Source: the human T2T-CHM13v2.0 reference genome, Homo sapiens. Taken from it: a DNA stretch of 64,000 nt. The stretch lies in assembly GCF_009914755.1 (NCBI RefSeq), contig NC_060925.1; one strand, written 5' to 3'. Below the pieces are notes generated by a model. It was not told where the DNA came from. It worked only from the letters and a program-made list of their open reading frames with translations, and made no database searches. Positions 12,760 to 60,843 of this stretch are shown piece by piece; within the stretch, counting starts at the first letter, position 1, and every line of letters begins with the position of its first letter. Both the position numbers and the translations under genes were made by a program.

Positions 12760-13178
12760 GGTTCTTCTCTCACCACTTCTCCCAGGTGCACTATGTTCTG
12801 GAAGACGCACAGAATGTCATGCAACTTTCTAAATGTATGTCCATGCCTTTGCCCTTGTGGTACCACCTAAAAGTTACCTTTCCTCTGCCTGTGAAGACTC
12901 TTCCTGTTCCTTCAGCGCCCATTCACTCCTTGCCCCCTTACCTGCATCAGGCAGGACTGATGCCTATCTTCACTATTTCCACTACACTGGGTTCACAGTT
13001 CTATAGCAGTAACTTGTCCCACTGAATTTTAATTTTGGTCAAAGTGCCCATCTTTCTCAGTAGACATAAGCATCCCAAGGTAAGTGACCAAGGCTTATTT
13101 TGTGTTTATGTCCCAAGCACCTGCTGCAGTGCTTGGAATATAACAGGTGCTCACTGAAGATTTCTTGAATGTGTGAAG
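12760..13178 (+). mobile_element. L2 3' end
   Basis: tagacataagcatcccaagg...cccaagcacctgctgcagtgcttgg...ggtgctcactgaag. Confidence 0.65.
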
Positions 13179-14227
13179 GACTGTGGTATTACATGGTCAC
13201 TCAGGGTGAGCACCTGAGATTATACGATGAGCAACTACCTTCAGAAATAGGCATGCCACTTGTTCCTGAAAGGGGGTTTGACAAGTGGTAGAATCATAGG
13301 ACAAAAATTCATGGCAATGAGTTGCCTATTAATGCTAGCTTCAAGTTCTCAATTCTTACTTTTATTTATGTTGACTTTGTCCTTCCTTTTCTAAGCTTCT
13401 ACTGTCTGTCCTTGCTTCTTCAGCTTGTAATGCTGCTTCCCTTTAAAATATAATTTCCATGCAACATTCTAGTTGCCCCCATCATATCAAATTAATGCAA
13501 AGGCTGCTTAAGCTGCTAGGAAAATATGGGTTATTACATGCTGCTGACAACAACACTGACAGTGATGTTGAAGCGGGGACAGAGAATACCTTTAAAAATT
13601 ATTATTTATACAGAGCCAGGGAGCTCCAGAATTTGAAGTGTACTTAGCAATCCAGTTCTATTCTTTTAGTACCAATTTAAAATAAATGCTTACCATCAGC
13701 CAGTTGCTATCACTGGGAAGAAGGTAACTTGAAGTATTTACTGATAAATAGCCTTTATTCCCAATTGTGACTTTTCTTCAGTGTCTACATATTGTGTCAC
13801 ATGTTCTATTGACACTGCTGCAATATAGATCAAAGATCTTGTGGCATAGGGGTAAGGGAGTGTTAGAATCTCCCTTGTCCCATTTGTTCTGTTACTGCTT
13901 TATTGGACTGATCTACCCTCATGAACTTGCAATCACCTAAATGGAAGTTTTGAATGTGTCACTTTTTGTTTGGTTATTTCAACCATGCTGCTATATATAA
14001 TCAGGTGTGGCACAGTTTGTCAGTTTGATTCTAGGTGTGAGTGAATACAAATCATTACACTATGCTGTTAACGATACTTGTCTGCTTGCCGTTACCTACT
14101 TTTTACAGACATCATAATAAAAGCTAGACTGTTTCTTGGGGGTGGGGGAAGAGATTCATTTAATGTAATTTAAGAACTTTTCCAATAGAAACTGAAATAT
14201 TATTGAAAATAATATCTATTTTTTAGC

Positions 14228-17499: not shown

Positions 17500-18030
17500 C
17501 TATCAACTCCTTTTGAAGTGGCTGAAACAATGAGGGAATTAACTATTTCACATAATATGGTGTTTCAAAGGAGGCGAGTTCCAGGGATGCTTAATTCACC
17601 AAGGAGCCAGGGTCTTTCTATGCTTTTGCTTGGCCATCTTCACCACATCAGCTGTTTTCCCTCATGACTGCAAGATGGCTGCCAGAGCTCTGGTGATTAT
17701 ATCTGTGTGCAAATACATTCAGAGGCAGAAAAGAAAACTCTATATTTCTTATAGTTCTTTTGAGAGCTAATAACATTTCCCAGAAGTATCCGCAGAAGAG
17801 TTATCCTCCAATTTCATTGACCAGAATTGAGTTGCATGTTCCTTCTTAAACCAATTGCTAGCAAGGGGAATAAAATTACTGTCATTGGTCAGATTACCAA
17901 GATTGATATGCTAAGACTGAGAATAAGGCCAAATTCTGGAAAGTCCATGGCCCCACTGAGGAATGTTCATGTTGGGAAAAACTGAGGTTCTGGGTGGGAA
18001 ACCAAGAGTACCTGTTAAAGAGGCTAGAGA
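17500..18030 (-). mobile_element. MLT1 (K/L-like) MaLR LTR
   Basis: caagatggctgcc...ttcattgaccagaattgagttgcatg...aaaccaattgctagcaaggggaa. Confidence 0.6.
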
Positions 18031-18401
18031 ATCATATTCTAAAGAGGCCCCTAAGAAAATTTATCTCCTGCCCCTGCCTGCCTACCATCTCGCCTCCTCA
18101 GGCTGTGTGAGAAGGGGAGGAAGAGACACAGGGAACAGTGAGGACAAGAGAGAGTGAGGTTGTGTCTATGCAGAGCCAAAACGTTCCAATACAAATGAAG
18201 AATCAATTGAGCTGAATGTTTATGCAACCAAATGCCAAATACATTGGTGTAGTTATAAAGGGATTAGTTTGGAAGTTATTAAACTTTGTCTCACAGTTTA
18301 ATTTTGGTTTGTCATGGCACTGGTGTATATATAGGGCAGGAGACACCATTTCCTTTTATCCTTTTATAGGTGCTGTTTAATTTCCTGCATGCCATGAAAT
18401 C

Positions 18402-56539: not shown

Positions 56540-58500
56540 ATTTATTTTAATTGCTGTATAGCATTCCATTGCAAGACTATACCACAATTTACTTATCTAT
56601 TCTCCCACTGAAGGATATTTAGTTTATTTCCAACTGTTAAATATTACAAAAATCCCTTAATGATCAGTTTTGTCAGTTTCTCCAAGTACATATATGAGAG
56701 TGTCTAGTGAAATACCGACGAATGGGATTGTCAGGTCATGGAGTAGGAGTGCCTTCAAGTTTACTAAATTGCCAAGTTGCTGTCTCCAAAGTCACTGCAA
56801 AAACATCTACTCTTGTCAGTATTTTGTGAAAGTTACTATTGTTCTACAATCTCAACACTTGGACATTATCAAAAATTGAAATTTCAATTTTTGATACATG
56901 GAAAATTGTATCTCACCGTTGTTCTAATTTTTATTCCCAAGATTGTTGGTGAGGTTGTATATCTCTTCTTACTTCTCTTGGCCAACACAGAGGTTTCCTT
57001 CTCTGTGAATTCTGTATATGTCTTTTGCCCCTTTTTCTAGTGGGTCACTTGTCTTATTTCGTTAATTTGTAGTTTGTCTTGAATTTTTGTATTCAAATCC
57101 TTTGTCGGCTATATGCTTTGCAAAATTCTTCCCACCTGTGGCTTCTCTTTTTGCTTTGTTTTATGGCACCGTTTATTATATGGTGTACTAGTTTCTTCAT
57201 GCTACTTTGACAAATTACCACAAACTTAGTGACTAAATCAGAAAATGTATTATCTTCTAGTTCTGGAGGTCAGAAGTCTGACTTGGCTTACACTGGCTTA
57301 AAATCAAGATGTGGGCTGGGCTGCATTCCTGCGGGGAATCAATTTCCTTGCTTTTTCAGCTTCTGGGTGCCTACATTTCCCGGCTTGTGGCCTCTCCCTC
57401 CATCTTCAAAGCCGGCTACATAGAATCTCTCACTCTGACACTCCTGCTCCTCCTTTTTCAGGATATTGGGCCAAAAGTATTAAATAGTTCACTTTCCTAC
57501 CAATCTGCTATGACATCTTTATCATATAGCCAGCTTTCATAAATGCATGGGTTTGCTTCTGAGCTCCGTCTTATGTTCTTTTAATTATTTATACCCTTGT
57601 TTCTCAAAGTGTGGTCCATGAACCAGCAGCACCAGCATCACCTGGCAGCTTGTTAGGTCTCAAGCCCCTCCCCAGACCTTCTTAATAAAGGATCTGTGGT
57701 TCACAAGATCTCCACAAGAGTCACAGTTGGAGCATGAAAGTTTGAGAAGCCCTGGTCTACCTGATGCTTTTGAAATCTTAAATAATATAACTTTATATCA
57801 AGTATCAATACTTAGTAAGTCAAGTTCCCTCTTCGTTCTTCTTCGTGTAAAATTCATAGTTTAACTCGGGAAGGATTGGAAATCTTATAATAATCTAAGT
57901 TCATAAGTTTGTCATATTTCTTCACTTATTTAGGTCTTTTTAAATGGTTTTCAGTAAATTCTGATAATTTTCTTTACAGGGGTCTTGCTTAACTCTTGTT
58001 GTGGGTTTTATGCATACGAGCCTTATAGATTTTGTTGCTGTTGAAGATGGTGTTTTTAAAAATTACCTTTTCTAATTGGTGCAGATATATTGGATTACAA
58101 TGTGTATATTGATCTAGCAACCTGGCAGACAGTTTTTATTAGGGCTAATAGTGTTTCTGTAGACTCTCTTGGCCTTGTCTTTTTTGTAGATAGTAAAATT
58201 GCCCGTGAATAATAATAGCTTTGTTCCTTTTTTTCCTGTCTTTTCAACTTTATTATTCTTGTGTTAATCCACTAGATAGGATTTTTCAATATAATGATGA
58301 GTAGAAGTAGTGAAGCAGAGATAGTCTTGATCCTAAACTTAAGGGAAAATTATTTTCATATTTTCAACATTAAAAGCAGTAATTTTTTGAGGGATATACT
58401 TTATAAGGCTAGAAAAGTATTCTCTTTTCTCGTTTGCCACAATTTTTATAAAATTAGAAATGGATATTAACTTTTATCAAGTGTGTTTTATGTGTCTACT
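56540..58500 (-). mobile_element. Ancient L1M fragments interrupted by MLT1 (~57184-57455) and MER5A
   Basis: T-rich antisense L1 3'UTR/ORF2 text, e.g. ttattttaattgctgtatagcattccattg and gtcttgatcctaaacttaagggaaa. Confidence 0.6.
57597..57755. mobile_element. MER5A
   Basis: ttctcaaagtgtggtcc...cagcatcacctgg...aaagtttgagaagccctg. Confidence 0.8.
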
Positions 58501-58750
58501 GAATTGCCCAGTATGCATACAAAGTGGGCTGAAAGGGAACCCCTTGCAATGGCAATTATGTTAGACTGGAGAGGCTATGGGGGTTATTTTCATTATTATT
58601 CTGTTTGTAATACAGTTACATTGCTTCCATATTTGAAATACTTCCTTCTTCAGGGTACCCAGTTGGAGTGTTTCAGGATCCAAATGAAATATATTTTTCT
58701 GTACCGAGAATATCAGCCTATTGAGTGATGTTAAGGAAAGGATATCTACA

Positions 58751-59026
58751 GGCCAGGTGCAGTGGCTTATGCCTGTGATCCCAGCACTTTCGGAGGCTGA
58801 GGTGGGCAGATCACCTGAGGTTGGGAGTTTGAGACCAGCCTGACCAACATGGAGAAACCCCATCTCTACTAAAAATACAAAATTAGCCAGGTGTGGTGGC
58901 ATATGCCTGTAATCCCAGCTACTTGGGAGGCTAGGGCAGGAGAATCGCTTGAACCTGGGAGGCCAAGATTGTGCCATTGCACTCCAACCTGGGTGACAAG
59001 AGCGAAATTCCATCTCGAAAAAACAA
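58751..59026 (+). mobile_element. AluSp with a right-arm deletion
   Basis: ctgaccaacatggagaaacc; perfect 18-bp TSD aaggaaaggatatctaca at 58733-58750 and 59027-59044. Confidence 0.95.
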
Positions 59027-59339
59027 AAGGAAAGGATATCTACAAAAATTCAGATCACATAAGCTCTCACATATTTAAAAAGTATTTATTGAACACTAAT
59101 TATATTCCAGACACTGTGCTAGAAGCAAGGATTAAAAAACTGAGCAAGATCAGGCCCCTTTCTCAGAGAGGGAGCATTGTGAGGTGCTTAAAAGTCCTAG
59201 AACCAGAGTAACATTTTACAAGCAGTTGATCTTGCGTAAATTACTTACTTAAGCTCTTTCAGTTTCAATTACCTCATGTGTAAAATGATAATATAAAATA
59301 ATAATAAAGCATTCTAATGAATTTGGCAGTGATTAAGAG

Positions 59340-59810
59340 GTCACTAATATTTCTACTTAAACAATAAGGAAAATATATCTTCTCACATACAAAGAAATTG
59401 TGATACACCTTGGTTGGTTACTCCAATAATCAATGGACTCAAGGACTCAAATATTTTTTATTTCTTGCTTCTGACATTTTCTTTCTGTCTCCTTATTCCC
59501 AGCTAGTTCCCCTCCTGCTTGCAAAAGTATTTACCAAGGTCTCTGCCATCAAGAAACTTTCAAAAAGTGCCTCACCTTCCTCTAACCATTAAACTTCTCT
59601 TCATCGTTCACTGACCAGAATTGTATGAAATGTCCATGCTGAACCTAATCAACTCTAAGAGAAATTAGATCACAGTAATTGGCCCCAACCAATTACTGTG
59701 ATCTAATTTCTCTTAGAGTTGGGAGGTATCTTTCCTTGAGGAAGACCAGTAGACATCCAAACAAAATTAGAGCTCTGACAGCCATGATGAAATGAATGGG
59801 CTATGTGGTA
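59340..59810 (-). mobile_element. Old MLT1 (K/L-like) LTR containing a perfect palindrome
   Basis: cttaaacaataagg...cactgaccagaattgtatgaaatgtccatgctgaacc...aacaaaattagagctctg. Confidence 0.55.
59650..59721. repeat. Perfect inverted repeat: 33-bp arms, 6-nt loop
   Basis: caactctaagagaaattagatcacagtaattgg-ccccaa-ccaattactgtgatctaatttctcttagagttg, checked base by base. Confidence 0.98.
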
Positions 59811-59812
59811 AG

Positions 59813-60843
59813 TGCGGTATTATGACATACATATACTCTGGTTTTCATCCATGGTCCCTGGCTCATAACTCCTAAAGCCCTTGTTGCAGTCTTTTGCTAT
59901 AATGTTGGAGTGCTTCAGGCCTCAGAAGAAGGCCTCAGAAAACAGACTCTCTCTCTCTCTCTGACTTTCTCCTGCCCTCCTTTCCTCCTTTCATCTTCCC
60001 TCACTTTTCTGTCTTGGAGCTGGCCATGAAGAAATTTTCCTGACCTACTTGTCTGATTGTAAACCATAAGATCCTCATTTCAGAAGGGGTCCTGCCCCAT
60101 GCCCAGAAGGAAGGAATGCTGCACACAGAGGCCAAGAAGAATCTGAACAAACAGGCCTTGCTGGGTTTCCCCACTCAGTCTGTTAGCATGAGACCATACT
60201 CTTTTGGTCCAATAGCATTTCTACCTGGTTGTCAATCATGCCTACTCAATGAAGTCTCCATAAAAGACCGAAGAAGACAGGGTTTGGGAAACTTCCAGAA
60301 AAATAAATAGGTAGAGGCTTATAGGAAGGTGAACAAGAACTCATGCACGAGCTGAGAGGGGAGTGCACCCCAGCTCCACGGGGACAGATGCTCCTACACT
60401 CAGGATCCTTCCAGACTCCACCCTGTGTATCTCTTCATCTGGCTGTTGATTTGTATCCTTTAAAATATCCTTTGTAATAAACCAGTAAATGTGTTTCCCT
60501 GAGTTCTATGAGCCACTCTAGCAAATTAATTGAACCCAAAGAGGGGGTTGTGGTAACCCCAACTTGGAGCCAGTTGATGAGTAGTTCTAGAAGCCCAGAC
60601 TTGTGACTGGTGGGAAGGAGGGGGTGCTCTTGTGGGACTGAGCCCTCAACCTGTGGTTACTGACACTATCTCCAGGTGCATAATGCTAGAATTAAATTGA
60701 ACTGGAGGACACCCAGATGATGTCTGCTACAGAATTGCTTGCTTTCTTGGTGTGTGGGGAGAAACCCCCATACATTTGGTCACGGAAATCTTCTGTGTTC
60801 ATTGTCGTGGTGTAAGAACAGAGGAAAATATGTTTTTTCTTCA
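59813..60843 (+). mobile_element. MER21A-like solo LTR
   Basis: ggttttcatccatggtccctggctcataactcc; agaggccaagaagaatctgaac; tatctcttcatctggctgtt; gtaataaacc. Confidence 0.85.

What the first reader, a model, noticed from the sequence alone, without database searches (positions are those of the whole stretch)
59650..59721. Perfect 72-nt hairpin (33-bp stem, 6-nt loop) inside an ancient MaLR LTR
Seen: the arms 59650-59682 and 59689-59721 are exact reverse complements around ccccaa. The host LTR is heavily decayed, and the comparable segment of a related LTR here (~17850-17920) shows no such stem, so perfect symmetry cannot simply be inherited. Inference: a short imperfect inverted repeat (around attgg...ccaat) was recently extended or homogenised by template switching, or is being maintained. 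Size and geometry match a pre-miRNA/endo-siRNA hairpin on either strand. The AT-rich stem could also extrude as a cruciform and be fragile. It is a candidate newly born small-RNA gene; a sense MER21A LTR begins ~90 bp away.
Basis: partly seen in the sequence, partly recalled or inferred. Interest (0 to 1): 0.7.

Follow-up and report, generated by a model that had tools for sequence, protein, structure and literature searches.

The report
Perfect hairpin inside an ancient LTR
A 72-base perfect hairpin sits in a very old retroviral LTR remnant and was most likely made when DNA replication briefly copied the neighbouring stretch backwards, a known and common kind of mutation, with no sign so far that it makes a small RNA.

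Summary
Arms 59650-59682 and 59689-59721 are 33/33 complementary around CCCCAA, the sequence is unique in the genome, and it folds far better than shuffles (z -10 to -15).

The host is one copy of a large, old, LTR-sized interspersed repeat. The name MaLR/MLT1 rests on recall only, because three print-named MaLR places gave no match.

Compared with 29 paralogous copies:
- The left arm is ancestral (50-70% identical cells).
- The innermost 7 bp, with the same 6-nt spacer, are an ancestral inverted repeat (50% paired against 13-32% in controls).
- The middle of the right arm is at chance (25%).
- No 26-33-nt insertion occurred.
- Relatives have no stable hairpin (mean z 0.02).

Best reading: one replication template switch extended a 7-bp seed by copying the left arm. 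This is a known mechanism (PMC10710096).

Perfect arms need no maintenance. The event post-dates most of the LTR's decay, but its date is loose.

Nothing supports a small-RNA gene. No gene is annotated there, the Rfam match is below threshold, the loop is 4-6 nt, the locus is intergenic, and the published base rate is 0.9%.

The parts
59306..59840 (+). Host element: one decayed, solitary-looking copy of an old LTR-sized interspersed repeat (MaLR/MLT1 type by recall only). Both bounds are approximate, within about 25 nt.
   Evidence: All-against-all nhmmer of 30 copies: similarity to other copies runs from about 59293 to 59865 at the widest. In the alignment of the 5' parts, similarity starts near 59309. 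In alignment A4 the 3' part is aligned up to about 59838. 150 of 150 scored genome candidates match the model of 59575-59688.
59650..59682 (+). Left arm of the palindrome. It is ancestral LTR sequence and served as the template of the copy.
   Evidence: 33/33 complementary to the right arm. Identity to 29 relatives on A4 is 52% (outer 15 nt), 50% (middle 11 nt) and 70% (inner 7 nt), against 26-34% for shifted columns. On my realignment the arm overall is 54%.
59683..59688 (+). Spacer / loop, CCCCAA. Same length as in the relatives but unusually diverged.
   Evidence: Host against relatives is 28-29% identical cells, where relatives among themselves show 49-50%. Only 6 columns.
59689..59721 (+). 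Right arm of the palindrome. The inner 7 nt are ancestral. The rest is an exact reverse-complement copy of the left arm laid over the ancestral right-hand segment.
   Evidence: On A4: inner 7 nt 55% identical to relatives, middle 11 nt (59696-59706) 25% (chance level, and 184 of 319 cells are gaps in relatives), outer 15 nt 39% against a relatives' baseline of 38%. On my realignment the 26 nt outside the seed are 29%, equal to the shifted control.
59676..59695 (+). Ancestral seed: a 7-bp inverted repeat (TAATTGG / CCAATTA in the host) with a 6-nt spacer. It holds two inverted CCAAT pentamers.
   Evidence: In-register Watson-Crick pairing in 29 relatives is 94 of 188 cells (50%) against 13-32% for shifts of 1-3 columns. 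On A4 the innermost 4 pairs are 70% paired counting G-U and the host row.
59818..60416 (+). The start is approximate, and the element runs on past 60416, where my query ended.
   Evidence: 40 of 40 scored genome candidates match 59800-60423 at 70-83% identity, most starting at query positions 19-50. An AATAAA lies at 60476-60481 (read).

Best explanation
The hairpin is a by-product of one replication error, a template-switch mutation of the 'quasi-palindrome made perfect' kind, inside a copy of an LTR family of eutherian age.

The ancestral LTR carried a 7-bp inverted repeat with a 6-nt spacer. While the + strand was being synthesised, the growing end had just copied the second half of that repeat. 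It then paired back onto the first half, either on the nascent strand itself or on the other template strand. It copied 26 further bases of the left-hand LTR sequence in reverse complement, then returned to the proper template.

The ancestral right-hand segment was overwritten in place, giving 33 perfect pairs.

Shown:
- The seed is ancestral.
- The left arm is ancestral.
- The middle of the right arm is not ancestral.
- There is no 26-33-nt net insertion.
- Relatives lack a stable hairpin.

Inferred:
- That it was a single event.
- That it arose by template switching.
- Its date: after most of the LTR's decay, somewhere in primate history.

The locus most likely has no function. It can form a hairpin or cruciform, but nothing indicates that it is transcribed or processed.
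For: Exact 33+6+33 palindrome, unique in the genome.

The host segment 59575-59688 belongs to a large family: 150 of 150 scored candidates match at E from 3.6e-23 to 2.4e-4.

29 relatives were aligned. They are 27 loci, window 17785-18120 and a chr13 copy (realigned). The results:
- Left flank: 66% identical cells to the host.
- Left arm: 54%.
- Right arm outside the seed: 29%, equal to the shifted-column control.
- Right flank: back at the relatives' own level, 41% against 42%.
- On the tool's own alignment the middle 11 nt of the right arm are 25%, which is chance.
- Seed pairing in relatives: 94/188 = 50%, against 13-32% in shifted controls.
- Letters between the left arm and the next conserved block: host 54; relatives median 49, mode 54 (5 of 29), range 18-76. 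A plain 26-33-nt insertion would predict about 75-87.

DNA folds of the same segment give host z -14.85; relatives have mean z 0.02, and 1 of 29 is below -2.

In print, template switching was first proposed to turn near-perfect inverted repeats into perfect ones and can create a whole perfect stem in one event. In human-lineage genic regions there were 53,666 putative events, 31,007 new stems and 6,054 of miRNA size (PMC10710096, section Results read in full).
Against: - No orthologous outgroup could be read (no primate genomes, no GRCh38, no reads). 'Ancestral' therefore rests on paralogous copies that are 40-70% identical to each other.
- The outer 15 nt of the right arm are as similar to relatives (39%) as relatives are to each other (38%) on alignment A4, but 35% on my realignment. 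The length of the overwritten tract (11 to 26 nt) and any second short ancestral stem depend on the alignment. Four outer pairs are 70-77% paired on A4 and 0-28% on the realignment.
- The spacer is oddly diverged (28-29% against 49-50%), and I cannot explain that.
- A net length change of 0 to about +7 nt cannot be resolved.
- The relatives are the 27 best-scoring copies, not a random sample.
Confidence: 0.8

Rival explanations
1. The hairpin is a working, newly born small-RNA locus (miRNA or endo-siRNA) on one or both strands, whatever mutation made it.
For: - The stem is 33-34 bp, with a few more pairs beyond a small bulge, close to the 35 bp preferred for Drosha substrates as stated in PMC10710096.
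- It lies inside an LTR, next to a second LTR, and 1,276 nt beyond the 3' end of the - strand lncRNA LOC105378919 (given table). In print, LTRs and read-through transcription are possible transcription sources.
- There is a sub-threshold Rfam match to mir-580 (40 bits, E 2.7e-06).
Against: - No RefSeq small-RNA gene lies there. 1,889 miRNA genes are annotated genome-wide, and the nearest is MIR548AC at 322,816 nt.
- The Rfam match is far below the cut-off of 83 bits. Its alignment shows pairing but little shared sequence.
- The apical loop is 6 nt (+) or 4 nt (-), against a stated preference for 10 nt or more.
- The perfect duplex has no mismatches.
- By reading, there is no CNNC in the first 20 nt after the stem on the + strand. 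On the - strand one begins 9 nt after the stem. The motif rules are recalled.
- The locus is intergenic, whereas 99 of 111 template-switch miRNAs in print are intragenic, and only 57 of 6,054 suitable hairpins (0.9%) are annotated miRNAs.
- A full-text search for a 17-mer of the arm found 0 papers. Supplements are closed.
Confidence: 0.03
2. The palindrome is not a fixed feature of the species. It is an assembly error, or a change private to this genome or cell line, or a rare human variant.
For: Only one assembly could be read. In print, template-switch events are seen as human polymorphisms (3,705 clusters).
Against: - A 72-nt feature is far shorter than the long reads behind such an assembly (general knowledge, not tested).
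- The structure is anchored exactly on a pre-existing 7-bp inverted repeat and keeps the local length. That fits a biological template switch better than a chimeric read.
- A private or rare variant would still be the same mechanism, only younger.
Confidence: 0.05
3. The symmetry is old and is kept by selection or by arm-to-arm conversion, as in a structured RNA, a protein-binding palindrome or a self-correcting palindrome.
For: - 33 of 33 pairs are intact in an otherwise decayed element.
- The centre holds two inverted CCAAT pentamers (read).
- A preprint title and abstract say template switching can also maintain hairpins (10.1101/2021.04.15.439925, search listing only).
Against: - Relatives show no stem beyond 7 bp and no fold stability.
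- All host-specific changes of the left arm are mirrored in the right arm, which is what a late copy gives.
- My arithmetic: 66 nt stay unchanged for a median of roughly 10-20 million years at recalled rates of 0.5-1.0e-9 per site per year. No maintenance is needed.
Confidence: 0.03
4. A foreign palindromic element (a MITE-like DNA transposon) inserted into the LTR.
For: The size and the perfect terminal symmetry resemble short palindromic transposon derivatives, which gave rise to some miRNA families (recall).
Against: - There is a single copy in the genome.
- The left arm is collinear with the LTR family.
- There is no 72-nt or 33-nt gain in length.
- The bases flanking the arms (…CCTAAT and GGAGGT…) show no target-site duplication (read).
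Confidence: 0.01

Closest known systems
Template-switch mutations that create perfect hairpins (Monttinen, Frilander and Loytynoja 2023, PMC10710096; the classical quasi-palindrome correction model cited there)
   Same: An inverted copy of adjacent sequence, at least 15 nt long, explains many differences at once, gives a perfect stem in one event and causes a sharp drop in fold energy. Here that is a 26-nt copy beyond a 7-bp seed, with host z -14.85 against a mean of 0.02 in relatives.
   Different: - Inferred from paralogous LTR copies, not from orthologues and ancestral nodes.
- The locus is intergenic and inside a repeat. That study scanned genic regions and left repeat-overlapping events out of its polymorphism set.
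- No miRNA is annotated here.
ERVL-MaLR LTRs of the MLT1 group
   Same: - High copy number, LTR-like unit length of roughly 530-650 nt, and deep divergence.
- In print, MLT1 members are found across eutherians and are absent from opossum (PMC10735291, passages). Single MLT1 copies are at least 90 and 98 million years old (PMC3836709, passages).
- The sequence motifs look like MLT1 to me from memory.
   Different: - No named reference could be compared.
- Models of the host segment found nothing significant at three print-named MaLR places.
- The subfamily cannot be given.
Young miRNA genes on perfect or near-perfect palindromes
   Same: The stem length is near 35 bp and the sequence can fold on both strands.
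   Different: The loop is 4-6 nt, nothing is annotated, the Rfam score is below the cut-off, there is no expression evidence, and the locus is intergenic.
Fragile AT-rich palindromes and cruciform-forming inverted repeats (review PMC7999016)
   Same: A short spacer and identical arms favour hairpin or cruciform formation (passages). The arms are 33% G+C (counted).
   Different: It is only 72 nt. The review cites about 180,000 near-perfect spacerless palindromes longer than 40 bp and 718 longer than 200 bp in the human genome. The known fragile ones are much longer.

Membership tests
ERVL-MaLR (MLT1-type) LTR | Member of a high-copy interspersed repeat family | tested here: met
   A sequence-only model of host 59575-59688 plus two copies matched 150 of 150 scored genome candidates, with E from 3.6e-23 to 2.4e-4. 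The first-look count of 292,954 is rough. A 30-copy model found only 3 copies in 264,000 bases, so it sees one subgroup.
ERVL-MaLR (MLT1-type) LTR | Sequence match to a named MaLR reference | tested here: not met
   No repeat library is on hand. Models R1 and R2 gave no match better than E 0.022 in three stretches: 10 kb upstream of PPCS (MLT1B in print), 10 kb upstream of NT5C1B (MLT1E1A), and 35-45 kb upstream of HEY1 (THE1B). The places are approximate and the models are narrow, so this is weak negative evidence. The name rests on my recall of MLT1 motifs.
ERVL-MaLR (MLT1-type) LTR | LTR-sized unit with shared ends (TG...CA) and a short target-site duplication | tested here: inconclusive
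   Shared similarity spans about 270-360 nt before and 240-330 nt after the anchor. Several copies start near TGT and end near CA (read). The host's ends are too decayed, and its 3' end abuts another repeat.
ERVL-MaLR (MLT1-type) LTR | Eutherian-age divergence | tested here: met
   Relatives are 70% (left flank) and 60% (left arm) identical pairwise. My arithmetic gives roughly 0.19-0.24 substitutions per site per copy, or about 90-110 million years at a recalled 2.2e-9 per site per year. The estimate is rough, because the best-scoring copies bias it low.
ERVL-MaLR (MLT1-type) LTR | Some copies are paired around an internal part | not tested
   Not needed to date the hairpin. I read no internal regions.
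Template-switch mutation (TSM) hairpin | Inverted fragment of at least 15 nt copied from adjacent sequence, explaining at least 5 mismatches (criteria in PMC10710096) | tested here: met
   26 nt beyond the 7-bp seed are the exact reverse complement of the left arm. Relatives pair there at control level (26-31%), and the host's right arm is at chance against relatives in its middle.
Template-switch mutation (TSM) hairpin | Absent from the parental or outgroup orthologue and present in the descendant | not testable with these tools
Paralogous copies served as stand-ins.
Template-switch mutation (TSM) hairpin | Sharp gain in fold stability | tested here: met
   Host z is -14.85. The 29 relatives have mean z 0.02, and 1 of 29 is below -2.
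Canonical miRNA gene | Registered or annotated, or a match to a curated family | tested here: not met
   There is no gene at the site in the given RefSeq table. No small-RNA gene lies within 500 nt of 147 other family copies, and the nearest miRNA gene is 322,816 nt away. The best Rfam hit is mir-580 at 40 bits against a cut-off of 83.
Canonical miRNA gene | Stem of about 35 bp | tested here: met
   There are 33 perfect pairs, 34 with a U-G pair on the + strand, and 4-6 more pairs beyond a bulge.
Canonical miRNA gene | Unstructured apical loop of 10 nt or more | tested here: not met
   The loop is 6 nt (+) or 4 nt (-). The preference is stated in PMC10710096.
Canonical miRNA gene | Transcribed and processed into ~22-nt products | not testable with these tools
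Palindromic MITE-type transposon | Many copies, target-site duplication, and an insertion relative to empty sites | tested here: not met
   Single copy. No duplicated flanks. The left arm is collinear with the LTR family and there is no gain in length.

The most novel reading that the evidence does not exclude
The template switch happened late on the human lineage, possibly specific to apes or humans, or still polymorphic. The resulting perfect 33-bp hairpin would be transcribed from one of the two adjoining LTRs or by read-through from the nearby lncRNA. It would then be cut into small RNAs from either strand. That would make it a caught-in-the-act birth of a small-RNA locus from a paired CCAAT motif of an ancient LTR.
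Probability: 0.03. Interest if true: 0.6.

Novelty: new member of a known kind. Interest (0 to 1): 0.3.

Why it matters
By itself it matters little. Hairpins made by template switching are numerous in primate genomes, and fewer than 1 in 100 become annotated miRNAs (PMC10710096).

Its value is as a clean worked example:
- Inside a repeat family, the many paralogous copies act as a stand-in for the ancestor.
- They show the seed (a 7-bp inverted repeat), the template arm and the overwritten arm without any outgroup genome.
- Published scans left repeat-overlapping events out of their polymorphism set. Events of this kind inside old repeats are therefore probably under-counted, and could be found by the same comparison with paralogues.

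It also shows that a perfect stem in decayed DNA does not by itself call for selection.

Tried and rejected
Searches for close copies
- BLAST-type searches of the genome with the 72-mer and with 421 nt found only the locus itself.
- A 22-position pattern from two window copies found 3 places.
- Single-sequence nhmmer over 264 kb plus one locus found few relatives.
- I therefore turned to a sequence-only model.

Naming the family
- No repeat library is on hand.
- I tried three places where a paper names MaLR copies (PPCS, NT5C1B, HEY1; PMC3836709). Neither model gave a significant match there.
- A full-text search for an 18-mer shared by three copies found 0 papers.
- The name therefore stays a recalled label.

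miRNA leads
- Rfam gave only a sub-threshold, structure-driven mir-580 match.
- None of 147 other family copies lies within 500 nt of an annotated small-RNA gene.
- A full-text search for a 17-mer of the arm found 0 papers.
- The supplements of PMC10710096 (tables and datasets of events) are closed. They could list this locus, though the genome-wide scan there covered genic regions.

Other points
- A second ancestral stem in the outer arms appears on alignment A4 but not on my realignment. I leave it open.
- Inversion of the loop was judged by eye and is not supported.
- MITE insertion is rejected (see rival explanations).
- The RefSeq soft-mask is no guide to old repeats here. It covers 17% of the window and neither LTR.

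Full report
**1. The observation**

The window holds a perfect inverted repeat exactly as described. The arms are 59650-59682 and 59689-59721, 33 nt each and 100% complementary, with the 6-nt spacer CCCCAA.
- As RNA, either strand folds at -59.3 kcal/mol in a 112-nt context. Shuffles average -22 to -23, z is about -10, and 0 of 200 shuffles fold as well.
- As DNA, the 72 nt fold at -34.6 kcal/mol with z -15.3.
- The 72-mer and the 421 nt around it match nothing else in the T2T genome.
- In the 304,000 bases I held, only 3 perfect inverted repeats with arms >=14 and spacer <=20 exist. Their arms are 33, 21 and 15 nt.
- A review cites about 180,000 near-perfect spacerless palindromes longer than 40 bp in the human genome (PMC7999016, passages).

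The feature is real and far beyond chance, but it belongs to a populous class.

**2. The host element**

The left flank and left arm align with a copy at window 17795-17892 and with a chr13 copy.
- A sequence-only model of that segment (R1) matched 150 of 150 scored genome candidates. The host is therefore one copy of a large interspersed family.
- All-against-all comparison of 30 copies puts the shared unit at roughly 530-650 nt. The host copy spans about 59306-59840.
- The relatives are 70% identical to each other in the best part and 60% in the left-arm columns. By my arithmetic that is about 0.19-0.24 substitutions per site per copy, or on the order of 100 million years at a recalled mammalian rate.
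- This agrees with what print says of the MLT1 group of ERVL-MaLR. The group is spread across eutherians and absent from opossum (PMC10735291, passages). Single copies are at least 90 and 98 million years old (PMC3836709, passages).

The name itself I could not test. No repeat library is on hand. My models found nothing significant at three places where that paper names MaLR copies. A text search for a shared 18-mer found no paper. Naming did not need inner genes, and I read none.

**3. What made the palindrome**

I aligned the host with 29 relatives. These were 27 loci, all 27 of which carry the model match, plus the window copy and the chr13 copy (A4; L-INS-i realignment). Four results follow.

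a. The innermost 7 pairs, with the same 6-nt spacing, are an ancestral inverted repeat.
- In the relatives they are Watson-Crick paired in 94 of 188 cells (50%), against 13-32% when the partner column is shifted by 1-3.
- The middle 11 pairs (31%) and outer 15 pairs (26%) are at control level.
- On A4 the tool's count, which includes G-U pairs and the host row, gives 70% for the innermost 4 pairs. The whole structure is 54.6% paired, against 35-44% when slid.

b. The left arm is family sequence.
- 50-70% of cells are identical to the host across its three parts, against 26-34% for shifted columns. On the realignment the figure is 54% overall.

c. The right arm is not family sequence in its middle.
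- Positions 59696-59706 are 25% identical, which is chance, and most relatives have gaps there.
- On the realignment the 26 nt outside the seed are 29%, equal to the control, while the flank just after the arm is back at the relatives' own level (41% against 42%).
- The outer 15 nt are ambiguous: 39% on A4, where relatives among themselves show 38%, and 35% on the realignment. Four outer pairs look paired in relatives on A4 only.
- The ancestral LTR may therefore have had a second short stem there, which would have helped the copying strand to land back. I leave that open.

d. There was no large insertion.
- Between the left arm and the next conserved block the host has 54 letters. The relatives have median 49, mode 54 and range 18-76.

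In addition, the relatives do not fold. Their mean z is 0.02 and 1 of 29 is below -2, against -14.85 for the host.

**4. Mechanism**

These facts fit one template-switch mutation. The growing + strand had just copied the second half of the 7-bp repeat. It paired back on the first half and copied the left-hand LTR sequence in reverse complement for 26 nt, or at least across the 11-nt middle. It then returned to the proper template.

This is the classical route from a quasi-palindrome to a perfect one. It is the route by which many primate hairpins, and at least 18 human miRNA genes, are reported to have arisen (PMC10710096: abstract and Results read).

The anatomy is shown. That it was one event, and that it happened during replication, is inferred.

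**5. Date of the event**

Every host-specific change of the left arm is mirrored in the right arm, and none has arisen since.
- With roughly 7-12 earlier changes in 33 nt and none later in 66 nt, a constant clock puts the event in the last 12-21% of the element's life (95% bound; my arithmetic).
- With recalled recent human-lineage rates of 0.5-1.0e-9 per site per year, 66 nt stay unchanged for a median of about 10-20 million years. The 95% bound is about 45-90 million years.

So the event is later than most of the LTR's decay and falls somewhere in primate history. 'Recent' is not proven and 'maintained' is not needed.

**6. Function**

Nothing points to a small-RNA gene.
- No gene is annotated at the site (given table). 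1,889 miRNA genes are annotated genome-wide, and the nearest lies 322,816 nt away.
- The best Rfam match is 40 bits against a cut-off of 83 and is driven by pairing.
- The loop is 4-6 nt, against a stated preference for 10 nt or more.
- The locus lies in the gene-poor stretch between MAB21L3 and ATP1A1, 1,276 nt beyond the 3' end of a - strand lncRNA.
- In print, 0.9% of suitable template-switch hairpins are annotated miRNAs, and 99 of 111 such miRNAs are intragenic.
- Hairpin or cruciform formation is physically plausible. The spacer is short, the arms are identical and they are 33% G+C. But known fragile palindromes are much longer.

**7. Verdict**

- The small-RNA reading is unsupported.
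- The family name is untested.

This is a new instance of a known kind of mutation, and it is neat because the paralogous copies reveal seed, template and copy.

Limits:
- No orthologues, reads or expression data were available.
- The relatives are the best-scoring copies only.
- The alignments are between sequences that are 40-70% identical.
- The supplements of the key paper are closed.

Noticed in passing
window 59818-60416 and on to at least about 60560: A second, younger LTR-like repeat directly follows the host LTR. 40 of 40 scored genome candidates match at 70-83% identity. An AATAAA lies at 60476-60481. Whether it truncates the older LTR was not worked out.
   Followed up: partly
window 59683-59688: The 6-nt spacer of the palindrome is much less like the relatives (28-29% identical cells) than the relatives are to each other there (49-50%). 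Only six columns, and unexplained.
   Followed up: partly
window 59676-59695: The centre of the palindrome is a pair of inverted CCAAT pentamers (ATTGG, six bases, CCAAT). The relatives carry the same arrangement in decayed form. A link to CCAAT-binding factors is recall only.
   Followed up: no
window 56867-56896: A 30-bp perfect palindrome without spacer (arms of 15).
   Followed up: no
L024:7510-7530 and its partner arm (chr1:116,619,510 onward): A perfect inverted repeat with 21-nt arms and a 19-nt spacer, the only other long one in 304,000 bases scanned.
   Followed up: no
window 58745-59038: An Alu-type repeat. It is soft-masked and gives two sub-threshold Metazoa_SRP matches and a sub-threshold mir-1268 match.
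   Followed up: no
window 59058-59169: Matches window 13073-13185 on the other strand (E 4.7e-4). This is another old interspersed repeat just upstream of the LTR.
   Followed up: no
window 59917-59942: A tandem 13-nt duplication (92% identical) inside the second LTR, followed by a short CT run.
   Followed up: no
whole window: The reference's soft-masking (stretches of 100 nt or more) covers only 10,811 of 64,000 bases (17%) and leaves both LTRs unmasked. Here it is no guide to old repeats.
   Followed up: yes
window and L006-L025 (264,000 bases): The 30-copy model R2 finds only 3 copies. That is far fewer than one MaLR per roughly 9 kb implied by the ~350,000 copies in print. The model therefore sees one subgroup, or only copies that keep this segment.
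   Followed up: partly
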